A DNA stretch of 64,000 nucleotides from Gemmatimonadales bacterium. GTDB lineage: Bacteria; Gemmatimonadota; Gemmatimonadetes; Gemmatimonadales; GWC2-71-9. Where the stretch lies: positions 33,808-97,807 of the forward strand of contig JANRIW010000020.1 of NCBI GenBank assembly GCA_033764505.1, read 5' to 3'. Of the stretch, positions 30,856-43,894 are shown piece by piece. The notes under the pieces were generated by a model. It saw nothing but the letters and a program-made list of their open reading frames with translations, was not told the origin of the DNA and searched no databases. The position numbers and the translations under genes are program-made. Each line of letters opens with the position of its first letter. Positions within the stretch are counted from its first letter, which is position 1.

Positions 30856-31190
30856 TGCCGTCGCAGGTGGCATCCCGATCGGTTCGGTCCTGGTGATTGA
30901 TGGCCGGATTGTGGGCCGAGGGCACAACCAGCGGGTGCAGTAAAGCCGCCGCAACGGACGAGCGACGTGAGTTTCCAAGTACCGGGTTGGTTTGCCGTTC
31001 GCTGTTCGCCTTTCGCTGTTCGCTGTTCGCTGTTCGCTGGCCGTTGCACTCGACGCTGTCGCCGTGCGACATGTGCAGTGGGGCGGCGCTGATGTACGGG
31101 ATCCCGAAGATCGTGGTGGGGGAGAACCGGACGTTTCAGGAACCCGAGGCGTACGTGCGGTCGCGTGGCGTGGAGGTCTTGGTGGTGTGA
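30851..31190 (+). pseudogene. decayed cytosine/nucleoside deaminase (yeast FCY1-type CMP/dCMP-deaminase fold)
   Basis: The N-fragment GGIPIGSVLVIDGRIVGRGHNQRVQ ends in TAA at 30941. The C-fragment, in another frame, reads TLSPCDMCSGAALMYGIPKIVVGENRTFQEPEAYVRSRGVEVLVV. There is no start codon. The HxE zinc-ligand segment is replaced by sequence containing a GCTGTTC heptamer array (30994..31042). Confidence 0.65.
30994..31042. repeat. heptamer array inside the pseudogene
   Basis: GCCGTTC, GCTGTTC, GCCTTTC, GCTGTTC x3, GCTGGCC. Confidence 0.9.
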
Positions 31191-31504
31191 CCGACGCTGA
31201 GCCACCTCATCGCGACCGCAGCCCCCTCGCATGGTGATGATTCTTCTGGTATAGCGGATCGCGGCCCAGATGGCGGGGGTGGAGCGGTTGGTGCTGCACT
31301 TGATGGATGAGGCAGGGGTGGGGACAGCGGAGTTCGCGATATCGCGGGCGTGGGAGTTGGTGGCGGAGGGTGAGGTGGGTTTGCGGTGGTGAGTGGGGAA
31401 TGGGATGTGAAGGAACGCAGGCCTCGGCGGTCGGGTTGTCCGTCAAGCGAGTTCCAGAACCGGACGCCGCGGTTGAATGTGCAGGTGGGCAACCTCGAGG
31501 AGCT

Positions 31505-32194
31505 ATGCGCGAATTCGAATGGGAGGCCGTCCAGGCCAGCATTAATCGTCAGATAGGCCGCCTTGTCCACGCACAGAGAACCCTTGCCTCCATCCATGAG
31601 TCGTTGGACAGCCGTCGACGTTCTCCCCTTGAGGAAGACTACATCGAACGCAGCCTGACGGGAGGACCAGTAGTCGGGCCTCATGTCCGAGACTTCGATG
31701 GCGTCAAAGTCACAACATGGCGGCTCCACCGCCGAGGGAAAGGAGCGAGGGATATAAGGGGTGCCGACATCCTGTATGAGATCGTAGGGAAGAAATTCGT
31801 CCTCATCCAGAACAAAATTCCAAGTAATGCCCGGGTGCTTGGGGATGCGGCGCAACTTCGTGAACTGCGAAGCTCTTGTCCGCAACCTTGCCCGCCGACG
31901 CCGAAGACGTTCGTTGGCTGTTCAAGCTGGCATTGCCTCAATGAACCGACTGGTGGAAGCCGTTATCATCAGGCTTGCCAGGCAGAGGCACTATTCGGAA
32001 AGGCAAAGTCAAGGCAGGTCCTGAGCTTTCAAGGTGGCTTGGGGGAAGCTGCATTCGAAAGCATGTTCGCCGAGTGCAGAATCGGGGCTAGTGTCGAACC
32101 CACGCCCGTGTTGTTATGGGCAGCCCAGTCAATTGCGCAGGGAAATGCCGTCTTCTTTGTGATCCAAGAGGGGGAATGGCGGCCCTTGACCTAG
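31505..32194 (+). CDS. hypothetical protein, possible PD-(D/E)xK-like nuclease
   Basis: 229 aa with GADILYEIVGKKFVLIQNK (D...QxK). An equally long antisense ORF (31136..31885) makes the strand choice uncertain. Confidence 0.4.
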   Translation: MREFEWEAVQASINRQIGRLVHAQRTLASIHESLDSRRRSPLEEDYIERSLTGGPVVGPHVRDFDGVKVTTWRLHRRGKGARDIRGADILYEIVGKKFVLIQNKIPSNARVLGDAAQLRELRSSCPQPCPPTPKTFVGCSSWHCLNEPTGGSRYHQACQAEALFGKAKSRQVLSFQGGLGEAAFESMFAECRIGASVEPTPVLLWAAQSIAQGNAVFFVIQEGEWRPLT

Positions 32195-32322
32195 CAATCG
32201 TTTGAGTTGGCGTTTGGATCTCACCCCTCGGCCGCGCGCTGTAGTCTTCCGGAGGAACGAAGGGGCCGCGGCGCGCCCCGTCACAGACACCTAGGACCTC
32301 AGGCCAACAAAGAGAAAGCCAA

Positions 32323-33168
32323 ATGAAATACTGGCTGGTGAAGGGCAGCCCCAAGAGATATGATCTCGACGAAGCGGTCCAGCTGGGATTAGTAGAGACT
32401 TGGGAGACGAGGAAACCACCCCGGGATTGGCGAGTAGGTGACCGCCTGTTCTTCTGGTCATCTGCACCGCGATTGCACCTCGTTGCCATCGGGAGCCTGT
32501 GTGGCGTTGTGGGAAAGCCGACGCGTGATGGACAGACGCTCTATTCTGTGGAATACCTCACAGATCCGCTGCCGAACCGGGTTGGCCAAGACCGGCTGCG
32601 AGCTGATCCCATCTGCGCCGGAGCAACCTTTCTGAAGCCTGCGGTTGCTCAGGGTGTGCTTGAAGTTAGCACGTCAGAAGCACATCAGATGTACCGCTTG
32701 TTGCGCGCGGCGAACCTAGGCATGGCCGATCGTTGGCCCGACATCCCCCAGGTGGACAATACGGCTAAGGTTGAAGCTCAAACACTTGCAAGTGCGCCAG
32801 TTTCAAGCACCCAGCCAGTGCCCTCCAATTGGTCTTTCGATCAGCTCGCCGATCTGGAAGCAGAGCGGACTTTCGCAGTACGTCGAGAGCAGCAGATGAT
32901 CCGGCAGCTCTTGCTCAATGGGCAGAGCACGGGCGGCTGTTGCATCTGTGGAGAATCCTTGCCGGCCGAGCTACTCATCGCGGCACACATCAAACCACGT
33001 CGACTTTGCACCGACGCAGAGAAACGCGATGCCCGTCACAACACAGCACTTATGTGCACACTCGGATGCGACGCGCTATTCGAGAGAGGCTTCATTGGTG
33101 TCAAGGAGGGCAGGGTCTGTACGGGTCCGGTTGCGTCGCCGGTAGTAGCGGTCCAACGATCGGTCTGA
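32323..33168 (+). CDS. EVE (PUA-like modified-base reader) domain fused to an HNH endonuclease
   Basis: N-terminus MKYWLVKGSPKRYDL...GDRLFFWSS is typical of EVE. C-terminus CCICGESLPAELLIAAHIKPRRL...HNTALMCTLGCDALFERGFIGV is typical of HNH_2. Confidence 0.8.
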   Translation: MKYWLVKGSPKRYDLDEAVQLGLVETWETRKPPRDWRVGDRLFFWSSAPRLHLVAIGSLCGVVGKPTRDGQTLYSVEYLTDPLPNRVGQDRLRADPICAGATFLKPAVAQGVLEVSTSEAHQMYRLLRAANLGMADRWPDIPQVDNTAKVEAQTLASAPVSSTQPVPSNWSFDQLADLEAERTFAVRREQQMIRQLLLNGQSTGGCCICGESLPAELLIAAHIKPRRLCTDAEKRDARHNTALMCTLGCDALFERGFIGVKEGRVCTGPVASPVVAVQRSV

Positions 33169-33394
33169 CGCCTGATTGGGAGAGATTGTTCGGCGTACTC
33201 GAAGGCGAGTACAAAGTATTTCCGATACCGACAGACACATTCGACAGTGTAGTAGCAAAAGTAGCGTTTGTTGCGCCCGGGATCTAACGCTTCGGCCCAT
33301 GCCTTGGTATCGGCAGGTCTTGCCGCAGAGCCGGACCACGCAGAATACTCACGCTCTCAATTCACCCATCCACTTTCACAACACTGAGGGTCCG

Positions 33395-35233
33395 ATGCAC
33401 CTGAGGTTTCCTGAACTGATGGGTGGCCCTGTTCAAGGGTTGAATGATGCGGGGGTGGAAAATTTTCAAGGGGCGATTGATGAGTACCTCTCCCGGGAGT
33501 GTGGTCAGAACACGTGCGATGCCATCAGGAAAGATGTCAACACAGCGCGGCTCGAGTTTGACCGGATGACCGTGCCAACTGAGCAGATACCAGGGTTTGC
33601 GTCCTTGCGCGTGGCGTTGGCTGCGAGCCTAGTAAAGTGGGGCGAAAAGGATAAGGAGCGCGAGTTCTTTGAAACCGCAGTACATCTCGCTTCAAGAGAT
33701 GAAGTCGACGTTTTGAAGATCAGTGACTACGGTACAACTGGACTTACGGGAGAGGATGAGGAGGAGACTGGCCGCTGGTTCGCGCTCGTCAAGTCGCAGG
33801 GTGTTTCGAACAAGGGGAGCAGCGCTGGGGGTTCGTTTGGGATCGGCAAGAGTTCGCCCTTCGCCGCCTCAAGGTTTCGGACGGTCTTCTATGGGACACG
33901 CACTACGACTGGATCTGTAGCCCTTCAGGGAGTCAGTAGGCTAGTCACGCATAGCAACGCCGATGGACAGAAGACCCAAGGTGTCGGATTCATTGGTCAC
34001 TACGAATCACAAGGCAGTGACAGCGGAGGGCCAGTCTTTCGCGCAGTTCGGGATCCGCAAGAGATTCCTCCCTTGTTCAGACGGGAATTGCCTGGTACCG
34101 ATATCTGGGTTGTTGGGTACCGGAGTGGGGTAACGTGGGACCACGACTTAGTTCGATCGCTGCTCACCAATTTCTGGCCAGCGATTCATCGCGGCTCCGT
34201 CCAATTTCGTGTTGGTGCGCTGGAGATTTCGAAGGAGAATCTCGACGAGATGATTCTCCGCTACTCTGTCGGAGAGGATTTCGTTGCACATTTGTACTTC
34301 AAGGCTATCGCAAGTCAACCAATTCGAAAGAAGCTAAGGTCCGTCGGGGATTGCGAGCTGTATCTTACTAGCGCGAGTGCGGATCTGCCCAAGAAGATTT
34401 GCATGGCTCGCAACTCTGGGATGCGGATTTATGACTACCAGCCGAGAGCATGCCGGGTGCCCTTCAGCGGATTGTTCCTCTGCAGTGACGAGGAGGGGAA
34501 CAAGTTGTTGCGCCAGCTGGAGCCGCCCAAGCACGATGGGTGGGACTACAAGCGCATGGAGGACGCCTCCGGAAAGCGGGCCCTAGACGAAATCAAGGGG
34601 TGGATCCGGGATGAAGTGAAGAAATTGAACCCGCTCTTCGGTGGTAAGAGCTTTAATGAGACCGAACTGGCGAAATACTTACCAGACATACAGCCCGATG
34701 ACCACTCAGACCTCCTAAGTGACTCAACCGGAGCTTCGATTGACGAAAGTCTCGAGCCGAGGCCGACTCTCGACAGTGTTTTGGCGGTCGCGGTCAGGGC
34801 AAAGTCGATTTTCAAGGACTCTGGGGGAACTGCTGATGGCGGATATGGGAAGCAGGAGAGCACGGGAGGCGGAGACCACAACAGTGGAAATAGCGGCAAG
34901 AAGCCTAGGAGTGGAGGCGGAGGTGCGGACGATTCATCTCCACCCTCAGTCAAGGTGCGTAGCTATCGCTCTGCCGCCGATCGGTACGAAATGGTGATTC
35001 GCAGCGCCGTGGCCTATTCCGGCAGGTTGATTGTTCACGCGGTGGGCGAAGACGGCGCACTTGAAGGAGTTGAGCTTAAGTCGGCGTCGAGGGGCACGTC
35101 TGATGGCGAGGGTCTCACAGTTGGTGGAGGTACCATCAACGGCATCCGACTCGAGGCTAACATACCACTCCGCCTCTCGGTCGTTATCGGGGCGCTTGAG
35201 CGGCGATCACTAACCGCGGTGGTGCTTTCATGA
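33395..35233 (+). CDS. GHKL-superfamily (MORC/sacsin/Hsp90-like) ATPase, first gene of a three-gene operon
   Basis: ATG after GAGGG. N-box RECGQNTCDA, G1 ISDYGTTGLTG, G2 AGGSFGIGKSSPF, then a Gly/Ser-rich linker and a beta-rich tail of about 90 aa. 612 aa. Confidence 0.8.
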   Translation: MHLRFPELMGGPVQGLNDAGVENFQGAIDEYLSRECGQNTCDAIRKDVNTARLEFDRMTVPTEQIPGFASLRVALAASLVKWGEKDKEREFFETAVHLASRDEVDVLKISDYGTTGLTGEDEEETGRWFALVKSQGVSNKGSSAGGSFGIGKSSPFAASRFRTVFYGTRTTTGSVALQGVSRLVTHSNADGQKTQGVGFIGHYESQGSDSGGPVFRAVRDPQEIPPLFRRELPGTDIWVVGYRSGVTWDHDLVRSLLTNFWPAIHRGSVQFRVGALEISKENLDEMILRYSVGEDFVAHLYFKAIASQPIRKKLRSVGDCELYLTSASADLPKKICMARNSGMRIYDYQPRACRVPFSGLFLCSDEEGNKLLRQLEPPKHDGWDYKRMEDASGKRALDEIKGWIRDEVKKLNPLFGGKSFNETELAKYLPDIQPDDHSDLLSDSTGASIDESLEPRPTLDSVLAVAVRAKSIFKDSGGTADGGYGKQESTGGGDHNSGNSGKKPRSGGGGADDSSPPSVKVRSYRSAADRYEMVIRSAVAYSGRLIVHAVGEDGALEGVELKSASRGTSDGEGLTVGGGTINGIRLEANIPLRLSVVIGALERRSLTAVVLS

Positions 35234-36096
35234 TCATTCGCGATCGGTCCTTTCCGCATCCCGTGCTTGCACCATTTCTGGACGACGTGTCACCGAATGA
35301 GTTCGAATGCAGAGTCTTGGTTAGCGCGGACGCTGACCAATACTACCTTAGCGTCGCATTCAGCTATACAAATGAGAGTCTACAGACACTGGTAACGGCG
35401 GGGCTCGCTGTTCACTCGATTCATGTCGAGTGTAAGCGTAATTATTTTCGGCACTTGTACACGCTAAGCGACCGCGCCGGGGTATTGAGCATCAGGACCA
35501 GCGAAATCATTGGTCGCGTGGAGATTTCCGGTTTCATCAGTGCAGCAGTGCCTATACCTGACTACTCGATTGCCGGCGCCCATTCAGACTATGGCGATAC
35601 CGCATTCAACATCGAAATTGGGGACATTCTGGCTGCTGCCTCGACTGTGACGTTCGATGCATATACGGACTACGACCCCCTCTCGACAATCGCCTCGATT
35701 CTCATGGTACGCTGTTCGGAAGCGGAGGTGGATGGCCCCTTGAAACTCGATACCAGCGGGGATCTGCTAAACGTGACCCTGTCACAGTCTGACTACGCGC
35801 GCTACGTGGAGTTGAAAGGAGATCCGAGCCTTGGGGCATTGCTCGCTAACCAGATTGTAGTACCGGTCTTGGTGGAGGCGGTACACGAGATCAAGGCAAC
35901 GCCAGCGGAAGAGATCGAACTCGAAATGCAAAAGCGCTGGTACCGTTCGATCGTGCGGAAGTTTGAGGTGTTGGATCTTGATGTGATGGGGGGCGATACA
36001 CCTGCAGTTGAGCTGACACAGATTCTGCTTCAGCTACCCCTACGCCGCTCGCTTGAGGGATTGATCCAGATCACCGAGATGGATGGTGATGTATGA
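35230..36096 (+). CDS. hypothetical protein (operon gene 2), possible PD-(D/E)xK core
   Basis: ATGA overlap with gene 1. 288 aa. VLVSADADQYYLSVAF ... HSIHVECKRNYF could be a D...ExK motif. No other motif recognised. Confidence 0.7.
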   Translation: MIIRDRSFPHPVLAPFLDDVSPNEFECRVLVSADADQYYLSVAFSYTNESLQTLVTAGLAVHSIHVECKRNYFRHLYTLSDRAGVLSIRTSEIIGRVEISGFISAAVPIPDYSIAGAHSDYGDTAFNIEIGDILAAASTVTFDAYTDYDPLSTIASILMVRCSEAEVDGPLKLDTSGDLLNVTLSQSDYARYVELKGDPSLGALLANQIVVPVLVEAVHEIKATPAEEIELEMQKRWYRSIVRKFEVLDLDVMGGDTPAVELTQILLQLPLRRSLEGLIQITEMDGDV

Positions 36097-36827
36097 GGCT
36101 TCCCTTTTTCCGTGCAGAGTTCCTCACTCGTCTCAAAGCGAATGCGGACGAGAACGCTTCGAAGTATGGACTGGACACGGGATGGATCGAGGCTCTTGCG
36201 AAGACTCAGTCCTATTTTCGCGAAAGCAATCAAATCGTTGATCCACCACCCGAGTTGATTTTTGCTGGGGAAGACAATCCTCAACATGACGCTGAGAATG
36301 CGAAGAGAATCTATTTGTGGCTTGCGGATCTGACCCCGGCCGTTGCGATGGAAGAGCGCCTTTGGGCATTTCTCACGCATTGCACCTTCCCGGCCTACAT
36401 GCGGGCTCGTTGGCCTGTATCCGGACCAGGGACTTTGCTAAGGCGATATTTTCTTGAAGGACAGTCGTTCGCCGCCCTTTCACGGAACGGCATCGGACGG
36501 TTGTGGTGGGCGGGCTACTTGACGAGGGACGAACGGCGCATCAACCCATTCGAGCTGACAGAGACGCTATTCCTGAGACAAGATGTGCAAGTTGCTCTGC
36601 TTGAGCGGTCATTGGGAAAGTGCGCGACAGCAAGGACAGCAGTTCTCGACTATGTCAGAACGAATCAAGAGTGGCTAGGGGAGTATTCCTTCGGGCGTCG
36701 AGTGCAGGTCTTGGTCAAGGAGCTGAATCTCTTGGGAGGAGTAGCCGTCCTCGATGCTTTGCCTCCGGCTTCGATCACTGCATACCTTCATAAGGTGAGC
36801 AAAGAGCTTCGCGAGAACAATGACTAA
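36093..36827 (+). CDS. hypothetical protein (operon gene 3)
   Basis: ATGA overlap with gene 2. 244 aa, helical-looking (ERLWAFLTHCTFPAYMRARW, GRLWWAGYLT). No domain recognised. Confidence 0.7.
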   Translation: MRLPFFRAEFLTRLKANADENASKYGLDTGWIEALAKTQSYFRESNQIVDPPPELIFAGEDNPQHDAENAKRIYLWLADLTPAVAMEERLWAFLTHCTFPAYMRARWPVSGPGTLLRRYFLEGQSFAALSRNGIGRLWWAGYLTRDERRINPFELTETLFLRQDVQVALLERSLGKCATARTAVLDYVRTNQEWLGEYSFGRRVQVLVKELNLLGGVAVLDALPPASITAYLHKVSKELRENND

Positions 36828-36838
36828 CTTCTGCCTTC

Positions 36839-38080
36839 TTAACCATGGATTGCGCATGCCCCACGCACATCAGCGACGAAGTCCTCAAACGAAAGCAGGT
36901 GCGCTTGGATCTCGTCGGGGTAGCTCCTGATGAGGGACGCTGGTACGACGAGCTGCACTCCGTGCTGTTGCATCTCACGGTGCTGGGAAACCGAAACGCC
37001 CTCCTGCAGCGTCAGCAGGTGCTTCACCGTGATCCGATCAGCTTCGTTGATGACCTGGCGCCACCGATCCTTGCAGGTTGTCTTCGCGGCAAGCATACGG
37101 AGCCTCGTCGCCGGCCACGCCTGATTGTGGTACGCTTCGATTGACGGGAAGATGAAGTCCGGAGTCTTCTTGTCTTCGGTTTGCGGTGTCCAGCTGAAGG
37201 CGACAGTTTCCTCCTGAAAAATCTGGCGGGCCTGCAGTTCGAGTGACCGACCACTCCGGGATTTTCTCCGATTGGTCAACGAGCCGGCGAACGCCACGAA
37301 TGCGTCAACCGATGCGAATCCCGCGGCAATCCGGGGCATTGCATGGAAGCGCTCGATCGATCGGAACACGTCGTACTCGCAATCACGACGTGCCATCAGC
37401 CGATCATCGACCGGCTTCCGGTGGTGTGTACGGTTTGCCACCACCCACTGCACGATCTCGTCGCCCGAGGGGAACGCTTCGCGCCAGGTCGCAGGAATGT
37501 TGGCGTCCTCGAGTGCGCACGGTCCGTCCTGCTCTTCGCCGATTCCGAGGCCCGACGGGCTGACAAGCAGGGGCCTGCCGGGCTCGACGCCCTCAACCCG
37601 CTCGAGGAGGTAGTCTTCCTCTGCAGCACTCCGGCAGCGCCAGACCCGGAGCGCATCCGCATCCTTGCCTGTTTGTACCCGAAACGCCATCACCACCAGT
37701 GAGCCGGTTGCGTCGGGTTCCACCATCGCGGCATCCCGACCACCCCATTTGGTGAGGCGCGCTTCATCGCGCCCGTTGCGCTGCCGCTTCACGCGCTTCG
37801 AGTTGTACCAGATGAGGCGGAGGTCCATCGATTCCACGTGTGAGTCGACCACCGCCGGCAAGACGAGATCGGGGTTTTCCTGGGTATCAGCGCGCGCTGA
37901 GAGTCCAGGAAAGGCGGCCGCGAGCAGCGCTTTCCCCACATGCGGACCACCTTGGTGGACATTGGGCTTGGCGTAGGTGTCGTTCGCGGAGAGGTACTTC
38001 ACATGCCAGAGCCACTCAGGACCTGAAACGTCGATCAGCCAGTTCTCAAACTCGCGTACCGGAAGCGGTAGGTCACTCAC
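36839..38080 (-). CDS. type IIE restriction endonuclease, EcoRII family
   Basis: Close by-eye match to E. coli EcoRII: YLSANDT (N-terminal effector domain), NRRKSRSGRSLELQ, TPDFIFPS, RMLAAKTTCKDRWRQVINEADRI, LFTLQEGVS-like LLTLQEGVSVSQ. GTG start overlaps the vsr stop (GTGA) and is preceded by GGAG. Confidence 0.9.
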   Translation of the reverse strand: MSDLPLPVREFENWLIDVSGPEWLWHVKYLSANDTYAKPNVHQGGPHVGKALLAAAFPGLSARADTQENPDLVLPAVVDSHVESMDLRLIWYNSKRVKRQRNGRDEARLTKWGGRDAAMVEPDATGSLVVMAFRVQTGKDADALRVWRCRSAAEEDYLLERVEGVEPGRPLLVSPSGLGIGEEQDGPCALEDANIPATWREAFPSGDEIVQWVVANRTHHRKPVDDRLMARRDCEYDVFRSIERFHAMPRIAAGFASVDAFVAFAGSLTNRRKSRSGRSLELQARQIFQEETVAFSWTPQTEDKKTPDFIFPSIEAYHNQAWPATRLRMLAAKTTCKDRWRQVINEADRITVKHLLTLQEGVSVSQHREMQQHGVQLVVPASLIRSYPDEIQAHLLSFEDFVADVRGACAIHG

Positions 38081-38481
38081 CGTTGGATTCTCCTGACAAG
38101 CGCATCGAGTGAACGTTCCCCGGTTCGGCATTCCCAGACCACGATCACCCGCCACCCGAGCCGCCGAAGCGCGGCGATGTTACTCGCGTCTCGCGCAACG
38201 TTTGCGCGGAACTTCGACACCCAGAACTCGCGGTTGGTCTTCGGCGTCGCAGCATATCGGCATCCGTGGTGTCGGTGCCAGAAGCAGCCATGCACCAGAA
38301 TCACCACACCCCAGCGCGGCAGGACGATGTCCGGACGCCCGGGAAGATCAACGGGGTGCAGCCGGAACCGGAATCCGGCACGATGCAGATGGGAGCGGAC
38401 GATTCGTTCAGGGTTTGTGTTCTTGCCGCGGATTCCGGCCATCATCCGGCTTCGCGTCGCGCGGTCGACGATGTCCGTCAC
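38077..38481 (-). CDS. vsr: very-short-patch repair endonuclease
   Basis: 134 aa with RSRMMAGIRGKNTNPE, LPGRPDIVLP and LVHGCFWHRH motifs. Confidence 0.9.
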   Translation of the reverse strand: MTDIVDRATRSRMMAGIRGKNTNPERIVRSHLHRAGFRFRLHPVDLPGRPDIVLPRWGVVILVHGCFWHRHHGCRYAATPKTNREFWVSKFRANVARDASNIAALRRLGWRVIVVWECRTGERSLDALVRRIQR

Positions 38482-38484
38482 CGT

Positions 38485-39756
38485 CTACGCTGCCTCTGAG
38501 GGGAGCTCCTGCTGAAAGCCGGCGCCACGACGTTCGCCTCTCACGTACGGTACCAGCGCCTTGGCCACTGCCGCGACCACAGGTACGGCAACCGAATTGC
38601 CGAACTGCTTGTATGCCTGTGTGTCCGAGACGTGAATCCGGAATGGCTCACGTCCCGGTCGATCGAAGCCCATCAACCGGGCGCACTCACGCGGCGTCAA
38701 CCGCCTCGGCCTGTCTCCGTCCCGGCGGATCAGGATCTCCGAACCGTCCTTGAAGTAGCGTGCCGAGAGTGTGCGTGCGACGTCATCGGGACCGACCAGC
38801 CCGAAGCCGAATCCGTTCCCAGCCGCCTTGTGCTTCTTGGCATACCCTTGGAGGTACTCCCAGAGGCCGGGAGTCAGGGTATAGCGTGGAAGCACTGCGC
38901 CAGCCGGATCAAGGAAGCGATCATCGACCGTCTCCGATCCGTCCTCGGGGTGGAGGATGTCCTTGAGCTTCGGCCCCTTCTCTACGGGAGGGAGATCGAC
39001 CTCATCCCAATCGAAGCGCGCACCTAGATCGGGGTGCAATCCGACGATGAAGATCCGCTCGCGATGCTGCGGCACGAAGCGCTTGGCATCGATGATCTTC
39101 CATGCGATCTCGTAGCCGAGCTTCTCGGCCAGGGTTCGGCGGATGACCTCGAATGTCCTGCCCTTGTCGTGCGACGCCAGATTCTTGACGTTCTCGAGCA
39201 CGAAGGCCTTCGGCTGCTTCGCCGCGATGATCCGTTCGATGTCAAAGAAGAGGGTGCCCTGGGTCTCGCAGTCGAAGCCGTGCTTCCTGCCGAGCGCGTT
39301 CTTCTTGGAGACTCCGGCGATGGAGAACGGCTGGCAGGGAAATCCGGCCAACAGGATGTCGTGATCGGGGATGTCCGCTTCCGGGATCACGGTGATATCC
39401 CCGTGCACTTCATGGTCCCCAAAGTTCGCTCGGTACGTCTTCTGGGCGTACTTGTCCCACTCTGACGTGAAGACACACCTCCCCCCAGCCTCCTGGAACG
39501 CGAGGCGGAAACCCCCGATCCCGGCGAAAAGGTCGATGAAGGAGAACTGACCCTTCGCCGGCGCTTCCGGAATGAGGCCGAGTAGATACTGAAACACGGC
39601 CTCGCGAATCTGCCCTTCGCCGGCTTCCCAGCGAGCAATGGTCCTAGGCTTCCACCCGCACGCCTCTGCCAGCTGCTCTTGGGTCATTCCCAGTGAATCA
39701 CGGAGCCGGCGGAGGTCGCTGCCGGAGCGATTGTCGGGTTTTGTTTGGGGGGACAT
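38485..39756 (-). CDS. dcm: DNA (cytosine-5) methyltransferase, Dcm/M.EcoRII family, with N-terminal XRE-type HTH
   Basis: [10 protein letters not shown] (motif I), GFPCQPFS (IV), ENVKNL (VI), [10 protein letters not shown] (VIII), [10 protein letters not shown] (X), with long colinear similarity to E. coli Dcm. [30 protein letters not shown] at 39792 is an alternative start. Confidence 0.9.
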
Positions 39757-39788
39757 AAGGATGACATTACGACATGTTGGCGGGACTT

Positions 39789-40862
39789 TCAAGCCCCCCT
39801 GTCTCGCCCTCTTCGGGCGATTGTCTCAGTGCGGGACCCGATGCCGATTGGCAAGGATCGGAGGGCGAGCGCATGGCGCCTGATGAACTCCGGTGGGAGT
39901 GCATTTCCGATCATGAGCGCGACCTTGTACCGCCCATGTTCGAGAGGGAATCGATAGTCTCTGGGGAACGATTGCAGAAGTGCAGCCTCCCTGAGACTGA
40001 TCGCCCGATCCTGGGTTGGGTGGAGGAATCTCCCCTTTGAGGGGTTGATGCAACCGCCTGTGATTGTGGGAGCGGGCTTATCCCAAGCCATCCGCCCGTA
40101 GACGTCCTTATAGCCATCACTCCGCTGGTGACATGGCAGCTGGGACTCGATTGGGAGTGCCGACCTACTCCCCCCGTTGGCGGGGATCATCGAGATTACA
40201 CGATTGATCCGATCAGAATGTTTGCTACCATGGTGATGGAGCGGGTCAGCGCTTCGCACTGGTGCAGGCAGACGCCCGATTGCTGCACGGACTGTCTTCC
40301 GCTTACGGGAGCGCGCGGCAAATTCAGGAGTACCACTCTTCGATGCCAGCAAGATGAGCCTTCGTCGATTCTGTGCGACACCGTAGTCTGCCACATTCAA
40401 CACATCATATCGCAGCCGGTACCCGCAGGCCCGCAAGCCGGCGCAGAATTTCCGAAAATTGTGCGTACGCGCCAGCGCCGGAACGTTCTCGATCATCACA
40501 CTGCGCGGCTGCATCGACCTGACGAGTCTGAGGACGTCAAGGATGAGGCCCTTATCCGCATCCCTCGGTCGCCGCCTTCCATTCCTAGTTCTCATGGTGG
40601 AGTAGCTTTGGCACGGGGGGCAGGCCGCCAACAAGTCCAGGTTCCCAGGTGAAATGCGTGAATCCCGAAGCAGCGCGGGACCGCTGACCTTCTTCACGTC
40701 GCATTCCCACAACTTGACCTTCGGGTTGTTCATCTTGTACGTAATGCAGGCGACCGGGTCGAGTTCGACAGCGCCGATTACTGCATAGCCAGCTGCGAGC
40801 AGGCCTGTGGTGAGGCCACCTGCTCCCGCGAAGAGGTCAACAGCAGTGTGCGTTCGGTTCAT
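39789..40862 (-). CDS. second DNA (cytosine-5) methyltransferase
   Basis: VDLFAGAGG (motif I), CPPCQSYS (IV), ENVPAL (VI), [10 protein letters not shown] (VIII), GNALPPEF (X). Confidence 0.9.
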
Positions 40863-40915
40863 TGGGCTCGACGTGATATGGATTCCGGTGCGTGCTTCTC
40901 GCTTCTGGCCCTACG

Positions 40916-42862
40916 TCACACTGAGAATGCAAAGGCATACCCACCGTCAGGAAATCGGATCTGAGGCCACCAAGCTACGTGCTGAGTTCCTTGTTGCTTG
41001 ATACGGAGCAGGAACAACGTCACGCGAGTGGAAGGAACCCGATTGCTCTCTCCGCCCTCGAGAATTCCTCGAGTCTCGCGGCGGGCTTCCTTCAACCCTC
41101 GGTCGCGGTCGACATACACGAATCCGGTGTCGTGTTTCAGGTGCTTCGCCAATTGCGCAACGGATTCTGCCACAGCAACCGCGTCCCAAATTCGTTCGGA
41201 CTCCTTAGGGTCAGGATGCGTCAGACGGATCAGATCTTGGATCACTTTTATCGGCAGCTCCTGATACGTCTTGTCCTGAATCCCCGCCACAATCTTGTCG
41301 AGCTTTTCCGTCGAGGTCGCTATAGAGCTGTCACGGAGAACCTGGGCGGGGTTGTAACTTCCACCCCCCGAGTAGATACCTACTGCGCCTGGAGCTAGCA
41401 CGTTCTTCCGTGTAGGGCTGAGACTTCCTTCAACATACACCCCTCGGAATGCTTCATCTGGATGCCGAGAGATCAGGTCGCGAAGCCCATTCTCCATTTT
41501 GTTGATAGCCTTGAAGACGACATCCAGTTCAGCTGGGAGAAAGAGCCGGAGCAGTCCCATATCTTGGCGGCGGTATCCATACATGCGGGCATGTTGGAGA
41601 ACTGTGTCAGCCTGCGGTTGCTTCGGGTTTCGTCCGTAGTAGCTAACAAGCAGATTCTTGATCGTTACCCCGCGGCCCAACTTGTTACCACCGACAAAGA
41701 GGTTATAGGGCGCCTGAACGGCTACATCCTCATCGGTCTCTCCGTTAACCAGTTTCACCGCAATCCCGGGTGCGAAAAAGGCGATGTCCTTGATCAGATC
41801 ATCAAATGAGGACTGCTTGATGCCGTTGTGCGTCACGGCAAGGTCTTCGTAGGCTCCCCGCAACCTAGCAATCACACTTGCGTCACTCGCGGCCAATTTG
41901 TCAGCCAAGTCCGCCTTGTACTTTCGGAAAAGGTCGACAATGTACTTATGATCCGCGGTTTTCGTGCTTACGTGGCACAAGAAGGCACAGTTTTGGTCAA
42001 CACTGATTTTGCGCTTATAGGTGGCCGCAACCATGAATGTGTCTAAGGCCCGCAGCAGAGATTGCGGGATCGTAAGTGTCGGTGCAGGTTGAGCGCCAAC
42101 TGCTAAGGCAGCGATATCTTGGATGTTGAAGTGTGTTACGAGAGTTGATCTCTCTCCGAAAAAGTCGTCCCCGCCAACGTAGTCACTACCCGGATGGCTC
42201 AGGACAGTGAACTGGGGCCGAAAATCGTGCTTCGGAGTCTGTAGGAACAGCGCTTGCGGCGTGGCTGTGACTTGCAGGTAGGTCGACTTGTCGAAGAACT
42301 TACGGATCTCAGAAATAAGTTCATTGATCTTGCTGCGAGTTCCGTTCGCCTTCTTGGCGGCAGTATTGAGGCTCGCCTGATCCGCTTCGTCATCGATGAT
42401 CAAGCAGCTTAGGCCTTTGACATTTCCGACCTTGAAGTTGTCTATCAGCGTGCTCAGGATCTTGGCGTTCTTCGTCGTGACGATGACACAGGTTCCCCTC
42501 CGAATGCGGCTGAGAAAGTCCTTCCCGTCTTTGAAATCATGTTTGCCCAGAATGTCCATCCCTGGAAACGCTTCGCGGGCGCGTCCAAAGGTTTGAGCAT
42601 AGAGCGGATCATTGTCCGAAGTAAGAATGATGATCGTCCGATATCCCTCGTCGGCACCGATGGCGCCCGTAACGGTCAGCACTCCGGTCTTGCCGCTTTG
42701 CACGAGTCCGTAGATCAATCCGTTCGTCGATTCTTTGCCGCCGCTCGCCGGGTCTACCCACTTCGTTGCCACTTCTACCGCGGTCTTCTCAATGTCGGAC
42801 ACTTCGGCCTGATTGCCGATCTGCTTCGTGAGTAGCCGCAGTACTTGGGACCGGTGTTTCAT
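40916..42862 (-). CDS. Z1-domain P-loop NTPase
   Basis: 648 aa. Walker A GLVQSGKTG and Walker B LIIDDEADQASLN in the arrangement typical of Z1-domain proteins found next to 5mC methyltransferases. Confidence 0.75.
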   Translation of the reverse strand: MKHRSQVLRLLTKQIGNQAEVSDIEKTAVEVATKWVDPASGGKESTNGLIYGLVQSGKTGVLTVTGAIGADEGYRTIIILTSDNDPLYAQTFGRAREAFPGMDILGKHDFKDGKDFLSRIRRGTCVIVTTKNAKILSTLIDNFKVGNVKGLSCLIIDDEADQASLNTAAKKANGTRSKINELISEIRKFFDKSTYLQVTATPQALFLQTPKHDFRPQFTVLSHPGSDYVGGDDFFGERSTLVTHFNIQDIAALAVGAQPAPTLTIPQSLLRALDTFMVAATYKRKISVDQNCAFLCHVSTKTADHKYIVDLFRKYKADLADKLAASDASVIARLRGAYEDLAVTHNGIKQSSFDDLIKDIAFFAPGIAVKLVNGETDEDVAVQAPYNLFVGGNKLGRGVTIKNLLVSYYGRNPKQPQADTVLQHARMYGYRRQDMGLLRLFLPAELDVVFKAINKMENGLRDLISRHPDEAFRGVYVEGSLSPTRKNVLAPGAVGIYSGGGSYNPAQVLRDSSIATSTEKLDKIVAGIQDKTYQELPIKVIQDLIRLTHPDPKESERIWDAVAVAESVAQLAKHLKHDTGFVYVDRDRGLKEARRETRGILEGGESNRVPSTRVTLFLLRIKQQGTQHVAWWPQIRFPDGGYAFAFSV

Positions 42863-42869
42863 GCGCTCC

Positions 42870-43292
42870 TCAACTGATTAGTAGTCGGGACCATGCTGAT
42901 GGGGGGATCTTGTGAGGAAGTGTGCATGCAGGTCCCGAGAGCTGATAGTGCTGTCCGTGAGACCTCCAACAGGATACGTGGCTCGTCTTGGCGCCAGGCG
43001 TTAGCACCGAGAAGAGCTCTTCAGAGCAAACCGATGCGATTCCATCCGCTCCGCATATCAGCCCGATTGTGACAGGTCCGGCGGCCGCCTTGGCGGCCAA
43101 GGCCGAAATTTCCGAGTCCACGAATGAAAAAGCCCACGGGCTCCTCACCTTGGTGGAGTATTTCAGGTACAAGACATGCCGGCCGTTGACCACCACGAAT
43201 GGTGGGGCAAACTGAATACGAACCGGGTCAGCCTCGCGAAGGAGCCTGTAAAGTGCGGCGCCTTCGTAGAAATCTTGCTTTGAAATCGCCAT
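42870..43292 (-). CDS. hypothetical protein, first gene of the Z1/Dcm cluster
   Basis: 140 aa from MAISKQDFYEGAALYRLL. No domain recognised. 7-nt gap to the Z1 gene. Confidence 0.5.
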   Translation of the reverse strand: MAISKQDFYEGAALYRLLREADPVRIQFAPPFVVVNGRHVLYLKYSTKVRSPWAFSFVDSEISALAAKAAAGPVTIGLICGADGIASVCSEELFSVLTPGAKTSHVSCWRSHGQHYQLSGPACTLPHKIPPSAWSRLLIS

Positions 43293-43894
43293 ACCGGTGA
43301 TGTACCTCGGGCGAGGTTGGTGATCCGCGACCGCCACAGCGGGAGGACTTACAGTAAAGGTACTATTCGGCGAACAATTCTGAGGCGCCACTTGTTGAGC
43401 CTAGGACGGGGGATCTTTTCCGAAGCGGCCCTTTGAAGGCGTGAAGTTGCGAAGTCGCAGTCCAATACAGGCCTGCTGCACTTGAGACTCCGCTAGATCT
43501 GCGCCATTCGCTTCCAAGGGCAGCCGGCGTGCACCTCGCGTTTCTGATGCGCGCGCGCCGGCGGTTGGCTGGAGCATTTCCACTATGAGATAGTTTATGC
43601 GCAAAGCATTGTGGGTTCCAATGGTTCGAGGCTGCGTCTCACGATGCTTTGCTCCCATTCTTTGTTGTGACATTGCCGACAAGCCTCCCCCGAACCGCGC
43701 CACCCACCCCCCTCAACCACCCCACAACGCCCTCCCCCAATGTCCAACTCTCGCCCGCCCCCGCGCAGCGGCTCGCCACCGACCCGCACCATCGCCGCAG
43801 AGCATCCACCATCTGCCCCACACCCGCCTACCGTCACACCCCCACCCTACCTTTCCTCCATGCCCTGCGACCTCACGCCACCCCATGGAGCCCA

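What the first reader, a model, noticed from the sequence alone, without database searches (positions are those of the whole stretch)
32323..33168. EVE-HNH fusion (predicted modification-dependent nuclease) in a host that encodes two Dcm methylases next door
The N-terminal half has the MKYWLVKGSP... pattern of EVE/PUA-like modified-base readers. The C-terminal half is an HNH_2-type nuclease (CxxC ... AAHIKP ... HNTALMC ... LFERGFI). Such fusions are thought to act as type IV restriction enzymes against modified cytosines. Here the gene lies within 7 kb of two 5mC methyltransferases. Its specificity must therefore avoid the 5mC patterns the host makes itself, for example by reading hmC or glucosyl-hmC, or a different sequence context.
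Basis: partly seen in the sequence, partly recalled or inferred. Interest (0 to 1): 0.6.

Follow-up and report, generated by a model that had tools for sequence, protein, structure and literature searches.

The report
Truncated EVE-HNH modified-DNA nuclease gene
The gene really is a fusion of a modified-base reader and a DNA-cutting domain, a known kind of anti-phage enzyme. In this genome a premature stop codon removes the last 27 conserved residues, so it is probably disabled and need not conflict with the two neighbouring cytosine methylases.

Summary
The ORF at 32323-33168 (+, 281 aa) is real. It has an N-terminal EVE domain and a C-terminal HNH_2 nuclease, both above Pfam's cut-offs. Its best match among solved structures is the EVE-HNH type IV enzyme VcaM4I. 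The catalytic residues are present (H222, N240, D250, E254), as are four invariant cysteines.

About 97% of homologous nuclease domains run 25-35 residues further. The next 27 codons, up to TAG 33250-33252, still encode that conserved tail. They add 24.6 bits to a family HMM, while 200 shuffled tails never add more than 9.8. AlphaFold places the stop inside a confident helix.

The genome has no tRNA-Sec, and every other island gene that matches a profile is full length. The gene is therefore most likely a recently broken or crippled type IV nuclease. It lies in a 12-kb low-GC defence island with PDC-M33, EcoRII-Vsr-Dcm and Dcm-Z1. The argument that its specificity must avoid host 5mC no longer follows.

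This is a new member of a known kind, of modest interest. One side lead: relatives of this nuclease also sit beside PDC-M33 in Deinococcus.

The parts
32323..33168 (+). EVE-HNH coding sequence as assembled (281 codons plus TGA)
   Evidence: ORF list and sequence. The N-terminus aligns from residue 1 with homologues that start MRYW/MNYW.
32326..32688 (+). EVE (PUA-like) modified-base reader domain, residues 2-122
   Evidence: Pfam EVE is above its cut-off. A profile of this clade hits EVE structures 2gbs, 2eve, 2g2x and 1zce at E 1e-7 to 2.5e-5. Foldseek matches to EVE, ASCH and THYN1 structures have target-normalised TM 0.55-0.67. Clade-invariant residues are W4, W27, P33, D40, P49, Y78 and F103.
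32728..32847 (+). Inter-domain linker, residues about 136-175
   Evidence: The AlphaFold model has pLDDT below 50 for residues 149-166. It corresponds in position to the auto-inhibitory linker 148-178 of VcaM4I (PMC7897488). The correspondence is an inference.
32848..33249 (+). Complete HNH_2-type nuclease domain as found in relatives (residues 176-309), interrupted by the stop
   Evidence: Family alignment of 136 homologues. Foldseek's top hit is VcaM4I 6yex over the full length, E 1.9e-12.
32938..33102 (+). Pfam HNH_2 core (residues 206-260) with catalytic H222, N240, D250, E254 and Cys206/209/245/249
   Evidence: The phmmer alignment to 6yex puts H222/N240/D250/E254 on VcaM4I H224/N241/D250/D254, which are the residues validated by mutagenesis. 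All are at least 99% conserved in the family except N240 at 62%.
33166..33168 (+). Premature in-frame TGA (codon 282), followed by C
   Evidence: Of 136 homologues, 132 have at least 25 residues beyond this point, as do 78 of 80 genomic loci with at least 20 residues. Position 282 is a variable sense codon in relatives: A 15%, R 12%, E 12%.
33169..33252 (+). Orphaned 27 codons (RLIGRDCSAYSKASTKYFRYRQTHSTV) plus the family's natural stop TAG
   Evidence: Read-through translation. The family HMM, built without the query, scores 152.9 bits truncated and 177.5 bits read-through. Shuffled tails score mean 155.2, sd 1.6, max 162.7; the other two frames score 153-155. Tail pLDDT is 94-98 and the stop cuts helix 275-284.
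33395..36827 (+). Neighbour: PDC-M33 A/B/C (GHKL-type ATPase triplet, candidate defence system), 142 nt after the natural stop, same strand
   Evidence: PADLOC PDC-M33A E 1e-130, B 2.5e-59, C 3.9e-53; Pfam DUF6339 on C.
36839..39792 (-). Neighbour: EcoRII - Vsr - HTH-Dcm cassette (CCWGG-type 5mC restriction-modification)
   Evidence: Pfam EcoRII-N/C, Vsr, DNA_methylase plus HTH_3. The methylase matches the solved Dcm-type methylase 3me5/3lx6 over its full length, E 7e-111. GC3 is 0.71-0.76 against 0.58-0.66 for the rest of the island.
39789..42862 (-). Neighbour: second C5-methylase plus Z1-domain helicase-like protein
   Evidence: PF00145 E 1.2e-54; Z1 E 7e-34; PADLOC Helicase_II E 2.8e-94. 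Specificity is unknown; the best solved relatives are DNMT1 catalytic cores.
31000..43500 (.). Low-GC island that carries all of the above
   Evidence: GC is 0.53-0.64 inside against 0.65-0.74 outside. Genome GC is 0.685. The EVE-HNH gene is absent from all 60 relatives searched; two show only weak matches to the nuclease half.

Best explanation
This is a horizontally acquired gene for a VcaM4I-like type IV (modification-dependent) restriction nuclease. An N-terminal EVE domain would flip a modified base of invading DNA into a pocket. That would release a C-terminal HNH nuclease, with a beta-beta-alpha-metal fold, to cut nearby. In this genome the gene carries an in-frame TGA at codon 282. The stop removes the last 27 residues of the nuclease domain, namely half of one helix, a strand and a final helix with the family's conserved F-x-x-H/R motif. 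The lost segment is still intact downstream, so the lesion is recent. The product is most likely inactive or strongly impaired. Loss of a modified-cytosine-dependent nuclease is what one would expect in a cell whose own island writes 5mC with two Dcm-type methylases, but that causal link is inferred, not shown. Shown here: the domain identities, the catalytic residues, the fold and the premature stop. Inferred: modification dependence, loss of activity and the reason for loss.
For: Both domains score above Pfam cut-offs. An EVE-clade profile hits solved EVE proteins. The AlphaFold model of the read-through protein has pLDDT 85.9, and its best PDB match is VcaM4I over the full length, E 1.9e-12. 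Catalytic H222/N240/D250/E254 align with VcaM4I H224/N241/D250/D254. Both halves are shuffled modules, as in known modification-dependent nucleases. The EVE clade is fused to classic HNH in 19 of 47 representatives and to NOV_C in 3 of 47, or stands alone. The nuclease clade pairs with EVE, ASCH, McrB-N, MutH or unrecognised N-termini. For the premature stop: 132 of 136 homologues and 78 of 80 genomic loci continue past residue 281. The tail adds 24.6 bits to the family HMM, and no shuffled tail adds more than 9.8. The stop lies inside helix 275-284 at pLDDT 94-98. The truncated form folds less consistently: its five models have mean pLDDT 82.7 to 65.7, against 85.9 to 83.1 for the read-through form. 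No tRNA-Sec is found among 58 tRNAs. All nine other island genes that match a profile cover it from (near) its first position; eight also reach within 25 positions of its end, and Vsr stops 34 positions short of the longer PADLOC model while covering the Pfam model. The genome's only two C5-methylases sit in the same island. No McrBC or Mrr is present in the genome.
Against: The genome is a metagenome-assembled genome (94% complete, 5.4% contamination). I could not inspect reads, so a consensus error or a minority allele cannot be excluded. No experiment shows that the tail is essential: 2 of 80 genomic relatives lack it. AlphaFold confidence is not a measure of stability. UGA followed by C is a weak terminator in E. 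coli (my own knowledge), so some full-length protein could still be made. Intact relatives of the nuclease domain do coexist with a C5-methylase within 10 kb in 7 of 80 loci. Conflict with 5mC is therefore not a general property of the nuclease module, and nothing here measures what this EVE clade reads.
Confidence: 0.6

Rival explanations
1. One reading: the enzyme is functional, either because the stop is an assembly artefact or because the 281-residue form still works. It coexists with the two Dcm methylases because its EVE pocket reads something the host does not make, such as 5hmC, glucosyl-5hmC, another hypermodified base, or 5mC in another sequence context.
For: All catalytic and zinc-site residues are intact. 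Characterised EVE-HNH enzymes prefer 5hmC to 5mC (PMC6765204; PMC7897488). There is only a single lesion and the tail is undecayed. 7 of 80 loci with an intact relative of the nuclease have a C5-methylase within 10 kb.
Against: The stop is in the assembly, and the other nine profile-matching island genes are essentially full length, which argues against a generally error-prone sequence. The tail is kept in about 97% of relatives. None of 23 loci of the same EVE clade shows a C5-methylase in the available flanks, although only about 9 have long flanks.
Confidence: 0.25
2. The gene is not a solitary type IV enzyme. It is a recruited nuclease arm of the neighbouring methylase-linked GHKL system PDC-M33, or of the Dcm-Z1 module. 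Neither of these has a recognisable nuclease of its own.
For: It lies directly upstream of PDC-M33A on the same strand. A relative of the same HNH_2-plus-tail nuclease sits 136 nt from PDC-M33C in two Deinococcus species (L054, L055). Relatives sit next to Z1-domain genes in three further loci from three phyla (L074, L084, L089).
Against: The Deinococcus gene pair is convergent, not co-directional, and its N-terminal domain is not EVE. Only 2 of 80 nuclease loci have PDC-M33. Earlier notes of this scan on seven other PDC-M33 loci report no nuclease; these are leads only. Defence genes cluster in islands anyway. The EVE clade elsewhere occurs as self-contained fusions with other nucleases.
Confidence: 0.1
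3. The UGA-C stop is tolerated or even useful. Rare read-through would yield a trickle of full-length nuclease, low enough to spare a 5mC-marked chromosome yet still able to act on heavily modified phage DNA.
For: The stop is TGA followed by C, the leakiest context in E. coli (my own knowledge). The downstream 27 codons are open and family-like.
Against: No relative shows a stop at this position. No recoding signal was looked for or found, and 27 open codons are not unlikely by chance. A recent nonsense mutation explains the same facts more simply.
Confidence: 0.05

Closest known systems
VcaM4I / TspA15I / CmeDI group of EVE-HNH type IV restriction endonucleases (Lutz et al. 2019, PMC6765204; Pastor et al. 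2021, PMC7897488; PDB 6yex)
   Same: The order of parts is the same: N-terminal EVE/PUA-like reader, linker, C-terminal HNH_2-type nuclease. The read-through form has the same overall length of 309 residues. The catalytic H, N, D and D/E residues sit at matching positions. VcaM4I is the best structural match over the full length.
   Different: The EVE half shows no sequence-level match to VcaM4I and is only 18% identical in the fold alignment. It belongs to a separate clade closer to classical stand-alone EVE proteins. The nuclease carries four invariant cysteines that VcaM4I lacks at the aligned C206-x-x-C209 position. The gene is cut short by a stop codon. Specificity is untested.
EVE-nuclease fusions catalogued by Bell et al. 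2020 (PMC7641849)
   Same: It is an EVE domain fused to an HNH nuclease in a defence context. The modular exchange of the nuclease partner (HNH, PD-(D/E)xK-like) is also seen here.
   Different: That catalogue is computational. The particular pairing of this EVE clade with this HNH_2-plus-tail clade is rare. It occurs in 7 of 183 retrieved representatives and in none of 80 species-representative genome loci.
PcaRCI (Dcm-type methylase system) versus PcaRCII (methylation-dependent HNH nuclease) conflict in Pectobacterium (Birkholz et al. 2022, PMC8989522)
   Same: A cytosine methylase and a modification-dependent HNH nuclease are present in one genome, which is potentially lethal and so needs a resolution.
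   Different: In Pectobacterium the nuclease gene is intact and silenced by promoter methylation. Here there is no CCWGG site in the 128 nt upstream (read) and the gene itself is truncated. PcaRCII has a helical N-terminal domain, not EVE.

Membership tests
Pfam EVE (PF01878) | Score above the curated cut-off, and the PUA-like beta-barrel fold | tested here: met
   25.5 bits against a cut-off of 23. The clade profile hits solved EVE proteins at E 1e-7. Foldseek matches to 2eve, 2gbs and 1zce have target-normalised TM 0.63-0.67.
Pfam HNH_2 (PF13391) | Score above the curated cut-off, and the beta-beta-alpha-metal core with the catalytic His | tested here: met
   25.8 bits against a cut-off of 21. 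H222 is in AAHIKP, and D250 and E254 are in CDALFE.
EVE-HNH type IV restriction endonucleases (VcaM4I/TspA15I group) | N-terminal EVE reader, linker and C-terminal HNH in one polypeptide | tested here: met
EVE-HNH type IV restriction endonucleases (VcaM4I/TspA15I group) | Catalytic residues equivalent to VcaM4I H224, D250, D254 (and structural N241) | tested here: met
   H222, D250, E254 and N240.
EVE-HNH type IV restriction endonucleases (VcaM4I/TspA15I group) | Complete HNH domain to the C-terminus (residues 179-309 in VcaM4I, which form the dimer) | tested here: not met
   The stop at codon 282 removes 27 residues that 97% of relatives keep. The feature would be met only if the TGA is read through or is an error.
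EVE-HNH type IV restriction endonucleases (VcaM4I/TspA15I group) | Reader domain belonging to the same sequence cluster as TspA15I/VcaM4I/CmeDI | tested here: not met
   Neither phmmer nor the clade profile finds the EVE half of 6yex. The similarity is at fold level only.
EVE-HNH type IV restriction endonucleases (VcaM4I/TspA15I group) | Hydrophobic pocket for a flipped 5mC/5hmC (VcaM4I P24, W82, Y130, E15) | tested here: inconclusive
   Clade-invariant aromatic and proline residues exist (W27, P32/P33, W45, Y78, F103).
EVE-HNH type IV restriction endonucleases (VcaM4I/TspA15I group) | Cleavage or restriction that depends on base modification | not testable with these tools
   This needs enzyme assays or phage plating.
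EVE-HNH type IV restriction endonucleases (VcaM4I/TspA15I group) | Solitary gene without a cognate methylase | tested here: inconclusive
   The nearest methylases are 5.3 and 6.6 kb away on the other strand and are tied to EcoRII-Vsr and Z1. However, the gene abuts PDC-M33, and relatives do so in Deinococcus as well.
PADLOC PDC-M33 (as an extra component) | Regular co-occurrence with the A/B/C genes | tested here: not met
   Only 2 of 80 nuclease-family loci carry PDC-M33, both in Deinococcus. No PADLOC M33 model matches the protein.

The most novel reading that the evidence does not exclude
The HNH_2-plus-tail nuclease is a facultative nuclease arm of the methylase-linked GHKL system PDC-M33, which otherwise has no recognisable nuclease. 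It sits immediately beside the A/B/C triplet both here (co-directional, EVE-fused) and in two Deinococcus species (convergent, different N-terminal domain). If so, the EVE domain would let the system also act on modified DNA. The premature stop would then mark decay of that arm, not of a stand-alone enzyme.
Probability: 0.08. Interest if true: 0.6.

Novelty: new member of a known kind. Interest (0 to 1): 0.3.

Why it matters
EVE-HNH enzymes are an established class of phage defence against modified DNA, so the gene adds a divergent member rather than a new principle. The useful result is the correction. The apparent paradox of a modified-cytosine nuclease living beside two cytosine methylases is most simply resolved by a premature stop that no ORF caller or by-eye reading would flag. 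If reads confirm the stop, this is a natural example of how conflicts between defence systems inside one island are settled by gene loss. The known alternative is promoter silencing. The two-module analysis also yields two testable sets of proteins. One is an EVE clade that swaps nuclease partners. The other is an HNH_2 clade with a conserved C-terminal extension that swaps reader domains.

Tried and rejected

2. Another copy of the gene. An exact-pattern scan of metagenome contigs across the stop found nothing. The 60 relatives searched hold no EVE-HNH copy; two show only weak matches to the nuclease half. No intact allele is available for comparison.

3. Selenocysteine recoding. I reject this: there is no tRNA-Sec among 58 tRNAs, and position 282 is A/R/E in relatives, never a conserved Cys.

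4. Silencing by promoter methylation, as for PcaRCII. There is no CCWGG site in the 128 nt upstream (read) and no sigma-70-like promoter was found. The motif of the second methylase is unknown, so this stays open.

5. A link to PDC-M33, tested from the M33 side. A single-protein scan of genome contigs found no relatives. A phylum-wide profile search gave only one other full-length PDC-M33A. The test was therefore run from the nuclease side.

6. A first alignment for the search for related loci was too diverse and was replaced by A7.

7. Mapping the EVE pocket onto VcaM4I was not possible.

8. Folding the truncated protein gives only weak evidence. The HNH blocks drop from pLDDT 94-97 to 85-95, and two of five models fall to about 66.

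9. The upstream ORF 31505-32194 and the 173-aa ORF 42870-43391 have no hit in Pfam, NCBIfam or PADLOC.

Full report
**Observation.** The window holds an ORF at 32323-33168 on the + strand (281 aa, ATG start). Its N-terminus, MKYWLVKG, lines up with residue 1 of its relatives. Pfam places an EVE domain on residues 2-122 (25.5 bits, cut-off 23) and an HNH_2 domain on residues 206-260 (25.8 bits, cut-off 21). PADLOC sees only generic HNH models and NCBIfam sees nothing.

**Setting.** The gene lies at the left end of a low-GC stretch from about 31000 to 43500, with GC 0.53-0.64 against 0.65-0.74 outside. The genome as a whole is 0.685 GC. The island contains the following genes:
- the candidate defence triplet PDC-M33 A/B/C (33395-36827, + strand);
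- an EcoRII-Vsr-HTH-Dcm cassette (36839-39792, - strand);
- a second C5-methylase with a Z1-domain protein (39789-42862, - strand);
- two ORFs without any family hit.

The two methylases are the only C5-methylase genes in the 3.6-Mb assembly. The first matches the solved Dcm-type methylase 3me5/3lx6 over its full length (E 7e-111). Together with EcoRII and Vsr, this supports CCWGG specificity. The motif of the second methylase is unknown.

**What the protein is.** A search of 1.84 billion representative proteins gave 1738 hits, but almost all cover only one half of the query. Among the 183 sequences retrieved, 47 match only the EVE half, 129 match only the nuclease half and 7 match both.
- The EVE clade is recognised by Pfam as EVE in 26 of 47 members and as ASCH in 4. 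It is fused to classic HNH (PF01844) in 19, to NOV_C in 3 and to HNH_2 in 1, or it stands alone.
- The nuclease clade pairs with EVE, ASCH, McrB-N, MutH and many unrecognised N-terminal domains.
- Such swapping of reader and cutter modules is the signature of modification-dependent (type IV) nucleases described by Lutz et al. 2019 and Bell et al. 2020.
- A profile of the EVE clade finds solved EVE proteins at E 1e-7 to 2.5e-5.
- An AlphaFold model of the read-through protein has mean pLDDT 85.9. Its best match in the PDB is the EVE-HNH enzyme VcaM4I over the full length (E 1.9e-12), followed by EVE, ASCH, THYN1 and YTH structures.
- The sequence alignment to VcaM4I puts H222, N240, D250 and E254 on H224, N241, D250 and D254. 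Those are the residues whose mutation abolishes VcaM4I activity.
- Four cysteines (206, 209, 245, 249) are 99% conserved in the clade.

**The premature stop.** Aligning the closest nuclease-half relatives showed that all of them run about 30 residues past the window protein's end. Reading through the TGA at 33166-33168 gives RLIGRDCSAYSKASTKYFRYRQTHSTV and then TAG at 33250-33252. This aligns with the relatives' C-termini, whose consensus is L-x-G-R-x-C ... Y-F-x-W-H.
- 132 of 136 homologues have at least 25 residues beyond the equivalent of residue 281.
- 78 of 80 loci from species-representative genomes have at least 20 such residues.
- A family HMM built without the query scores the truncated domain at 152.9 bits and the read-through domain at 177.5 bits. 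Two hundred shuffled tails score mean 155.2, sd 1.6, maximum 162.7. The two other reading frames give 153-155.
- In the model the stop falls inside helix 275-284. It removes a strand and helix 297-305, all at pLDDT 94-98.
- The truncated sequence folds less consistently. Its five models have mean pLDDT from 82.7 down to 65.7, against 85.9 to 83.1 for the read-through form. This is weak evidence only.
- In VcaM4I the HNH domain is defined as residues 179-309, to the very C-terminus, and it forms the dimer.
- Selenocysteine is unlikely: no tRNA-Sec is found among 58 tRNAs, and the position is A/R/E in relatives.
- All nine other island genes that match a profile cover it from (near) its first position. 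Eight also reach within 25 positions of its end. Vsr stops 34 positions short of the longer PADLOC model but covers the Pfam model. The assembly is therefore not generally error-ridden here.
I also found no second copy of the gene, either in metagenome contigs or in 60 relatives, of which two show only weak matches to the nuclease half.

**Mechanism and its status.** By homology the intact protein would work like VcaM4I. The EVE domain flips a modified base into a pocket, the linker releases its block, and the dimeric HNH domains cut (Pastor 2021). What this particular EVE clade reads is unknown. It is not in the TspA15I/VcaM4I sequence cluster, and I could not map its invariant aromatic residues onto the known pocket.

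As assembled, the gene most likely yields a crippled or inactive product. Because the lost tail is undecayed, the lesion is recent. A single C-to-T change from CGA would produce the stop; Arg is among the commonest residues at this position. That is an inference.

Loss of such a gene is plausible in a cell that methylates its own cytosines. I also found no McrBC or Mrr in the genome. But the causal link is not demonstrated. Known EVE-HNH enzymes prefer 5hmC to 5mC. In addition, 7 of 80 loci with intact relatives of the nuclease have a C5-methylase within 10 kb. By contrast, none of 23 loci of the same EVE clade shows a C5-methylase, PDC-M33 or Z1 gene in the available flanks. Only about nine of those loci have long flanks.

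**Rivals.** Three alternatives remain.
This stays possible if the stop is an artefact or the tail is dispensable.
- The nuclease may belong functionally to its neighbours. A relative sits 136 nt from PDC-M33C in two Deinococcus species, and relatives abut Z1-domain genes in Pirellula, Limnocylindrus and Arthrobacter loci. Against this, the association is rare (2 of 80 loci), the orientation differs, and the Deinococcus protein has no EVE domain. Earlier notes of this scan describe PDC-M33 as lacking a nuclease elsewhere; these are leads, not evidence.
- Leaky read-through of UGA-C could give a low dose of full-length enzyme. Nothing supports this beyond the codon context.

**Comparison with what is known, and novelty.** EVE-HNH type IV enzymes are established by biochemistry, structure and catalogues. 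Conflict between a Dcm-type methylase and a methylation-dependent HNH nuclease has a worked example, resolved by promoter methylation. Here there is no CCWGG site in the 128 nt upstream of the gene.

The gene is therefore a new, divergent and probably defunct member of a known kind. What is unusual is modest. This EVE clade is rarely paired with this HNH_2-plus-tail clade: 7 of 183 representatives and none of 80 genomic loci. The stop codon also changes the reading of the finding.

**Verdict.** The best explanation is a recently truncated VcaM4I-like type IV nuclease gene (confidence 0.6). Interest is 0.3.

Noticed in passing
L054:9434-14065 and L055 (Deinococcus navajonensis, D. hohokamensis): A 327-aa HNH_2-plus-tail protein converges on a PDC-M33 C/B/A operon with a 136-nt gap. 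No C5-methylase was detected within 10 kb. This is the same nuclease family next to PDC-M33 as in the window, in an unrelated phylum.
   Followed up: partly
L084:649-6809 (Pirellula MAG) and L089:4458-11018 (Limnocylindrus): A conserved cassette occurs in two phyla: C5-methylase, HaeIII-type restriction enzyme, HNH_2-plus-tail nuclease (335 and 309 aa), a small opposite-strand ORF (142 aa in L084, 151 aa in L089; neither scanned against any family library), a Z1-domain protein and a 248/408-aa unknown protein. In L074 (Arthrobacter) the order is HNH_2, DUF4420, Z1, GmrSD_N, Dcm.
   Followed up: partly
window 36839-40862 (-): The EcoRII-Vsr-Dcm1 cassette has GC3 of 0.71-0.76, against 0.58-0.66 for every other island gene. 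Even so, the Dcm1 start overlaps the Dcm2 stop by 4 nt (39789-39792). The island looks assembled from at least two sources and then welded into one minus-strand operon.
   Followed up: partly
window 30897-31190 (+): Only the last 26 residues of this ORF match the end of the cytidine/deoxycytidylate deaminase profile (PF00383 positions 76-101 of 102, E 4e-4). It is a gene remnant at the left border of the island.
   Followed up: no
window 31505-32194 (+) and 42870-43391 (-): The two ORFs at the island's ends (229 and 173 aa) have no hit in Pfam, NCBIfam or PADLOC. An antisense ORF at 31136-31885 is equally open.
   Followed up: partly
L115:1-1810 (microbial-mat contig, coverage 2.2): A close EVE-clade relative (55% identity) fused to a classic HNH is split by a frameshift. 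It is followed 2 nt later by a 321-aa VcaM4I-like HNH_2 protein with a different N-terminal domain. These are two putative modification-dependent nucleases in tandem.
   Followed up: no
G000:C32:73807-74181 (L138): The genome has a second, strong EVE hit (117 bits) in a 187-aa open frame. It is presumably the stand-alone housekeeping type of EVE protein and is unrelated to the island.
   Followed up: no
L007:731-8861: A close relative of the nuclease half (P0011) sits just after a type I restriction-modification operon whose HsdM is called as two pieces (195 and 256 aa).
   Followed up: no
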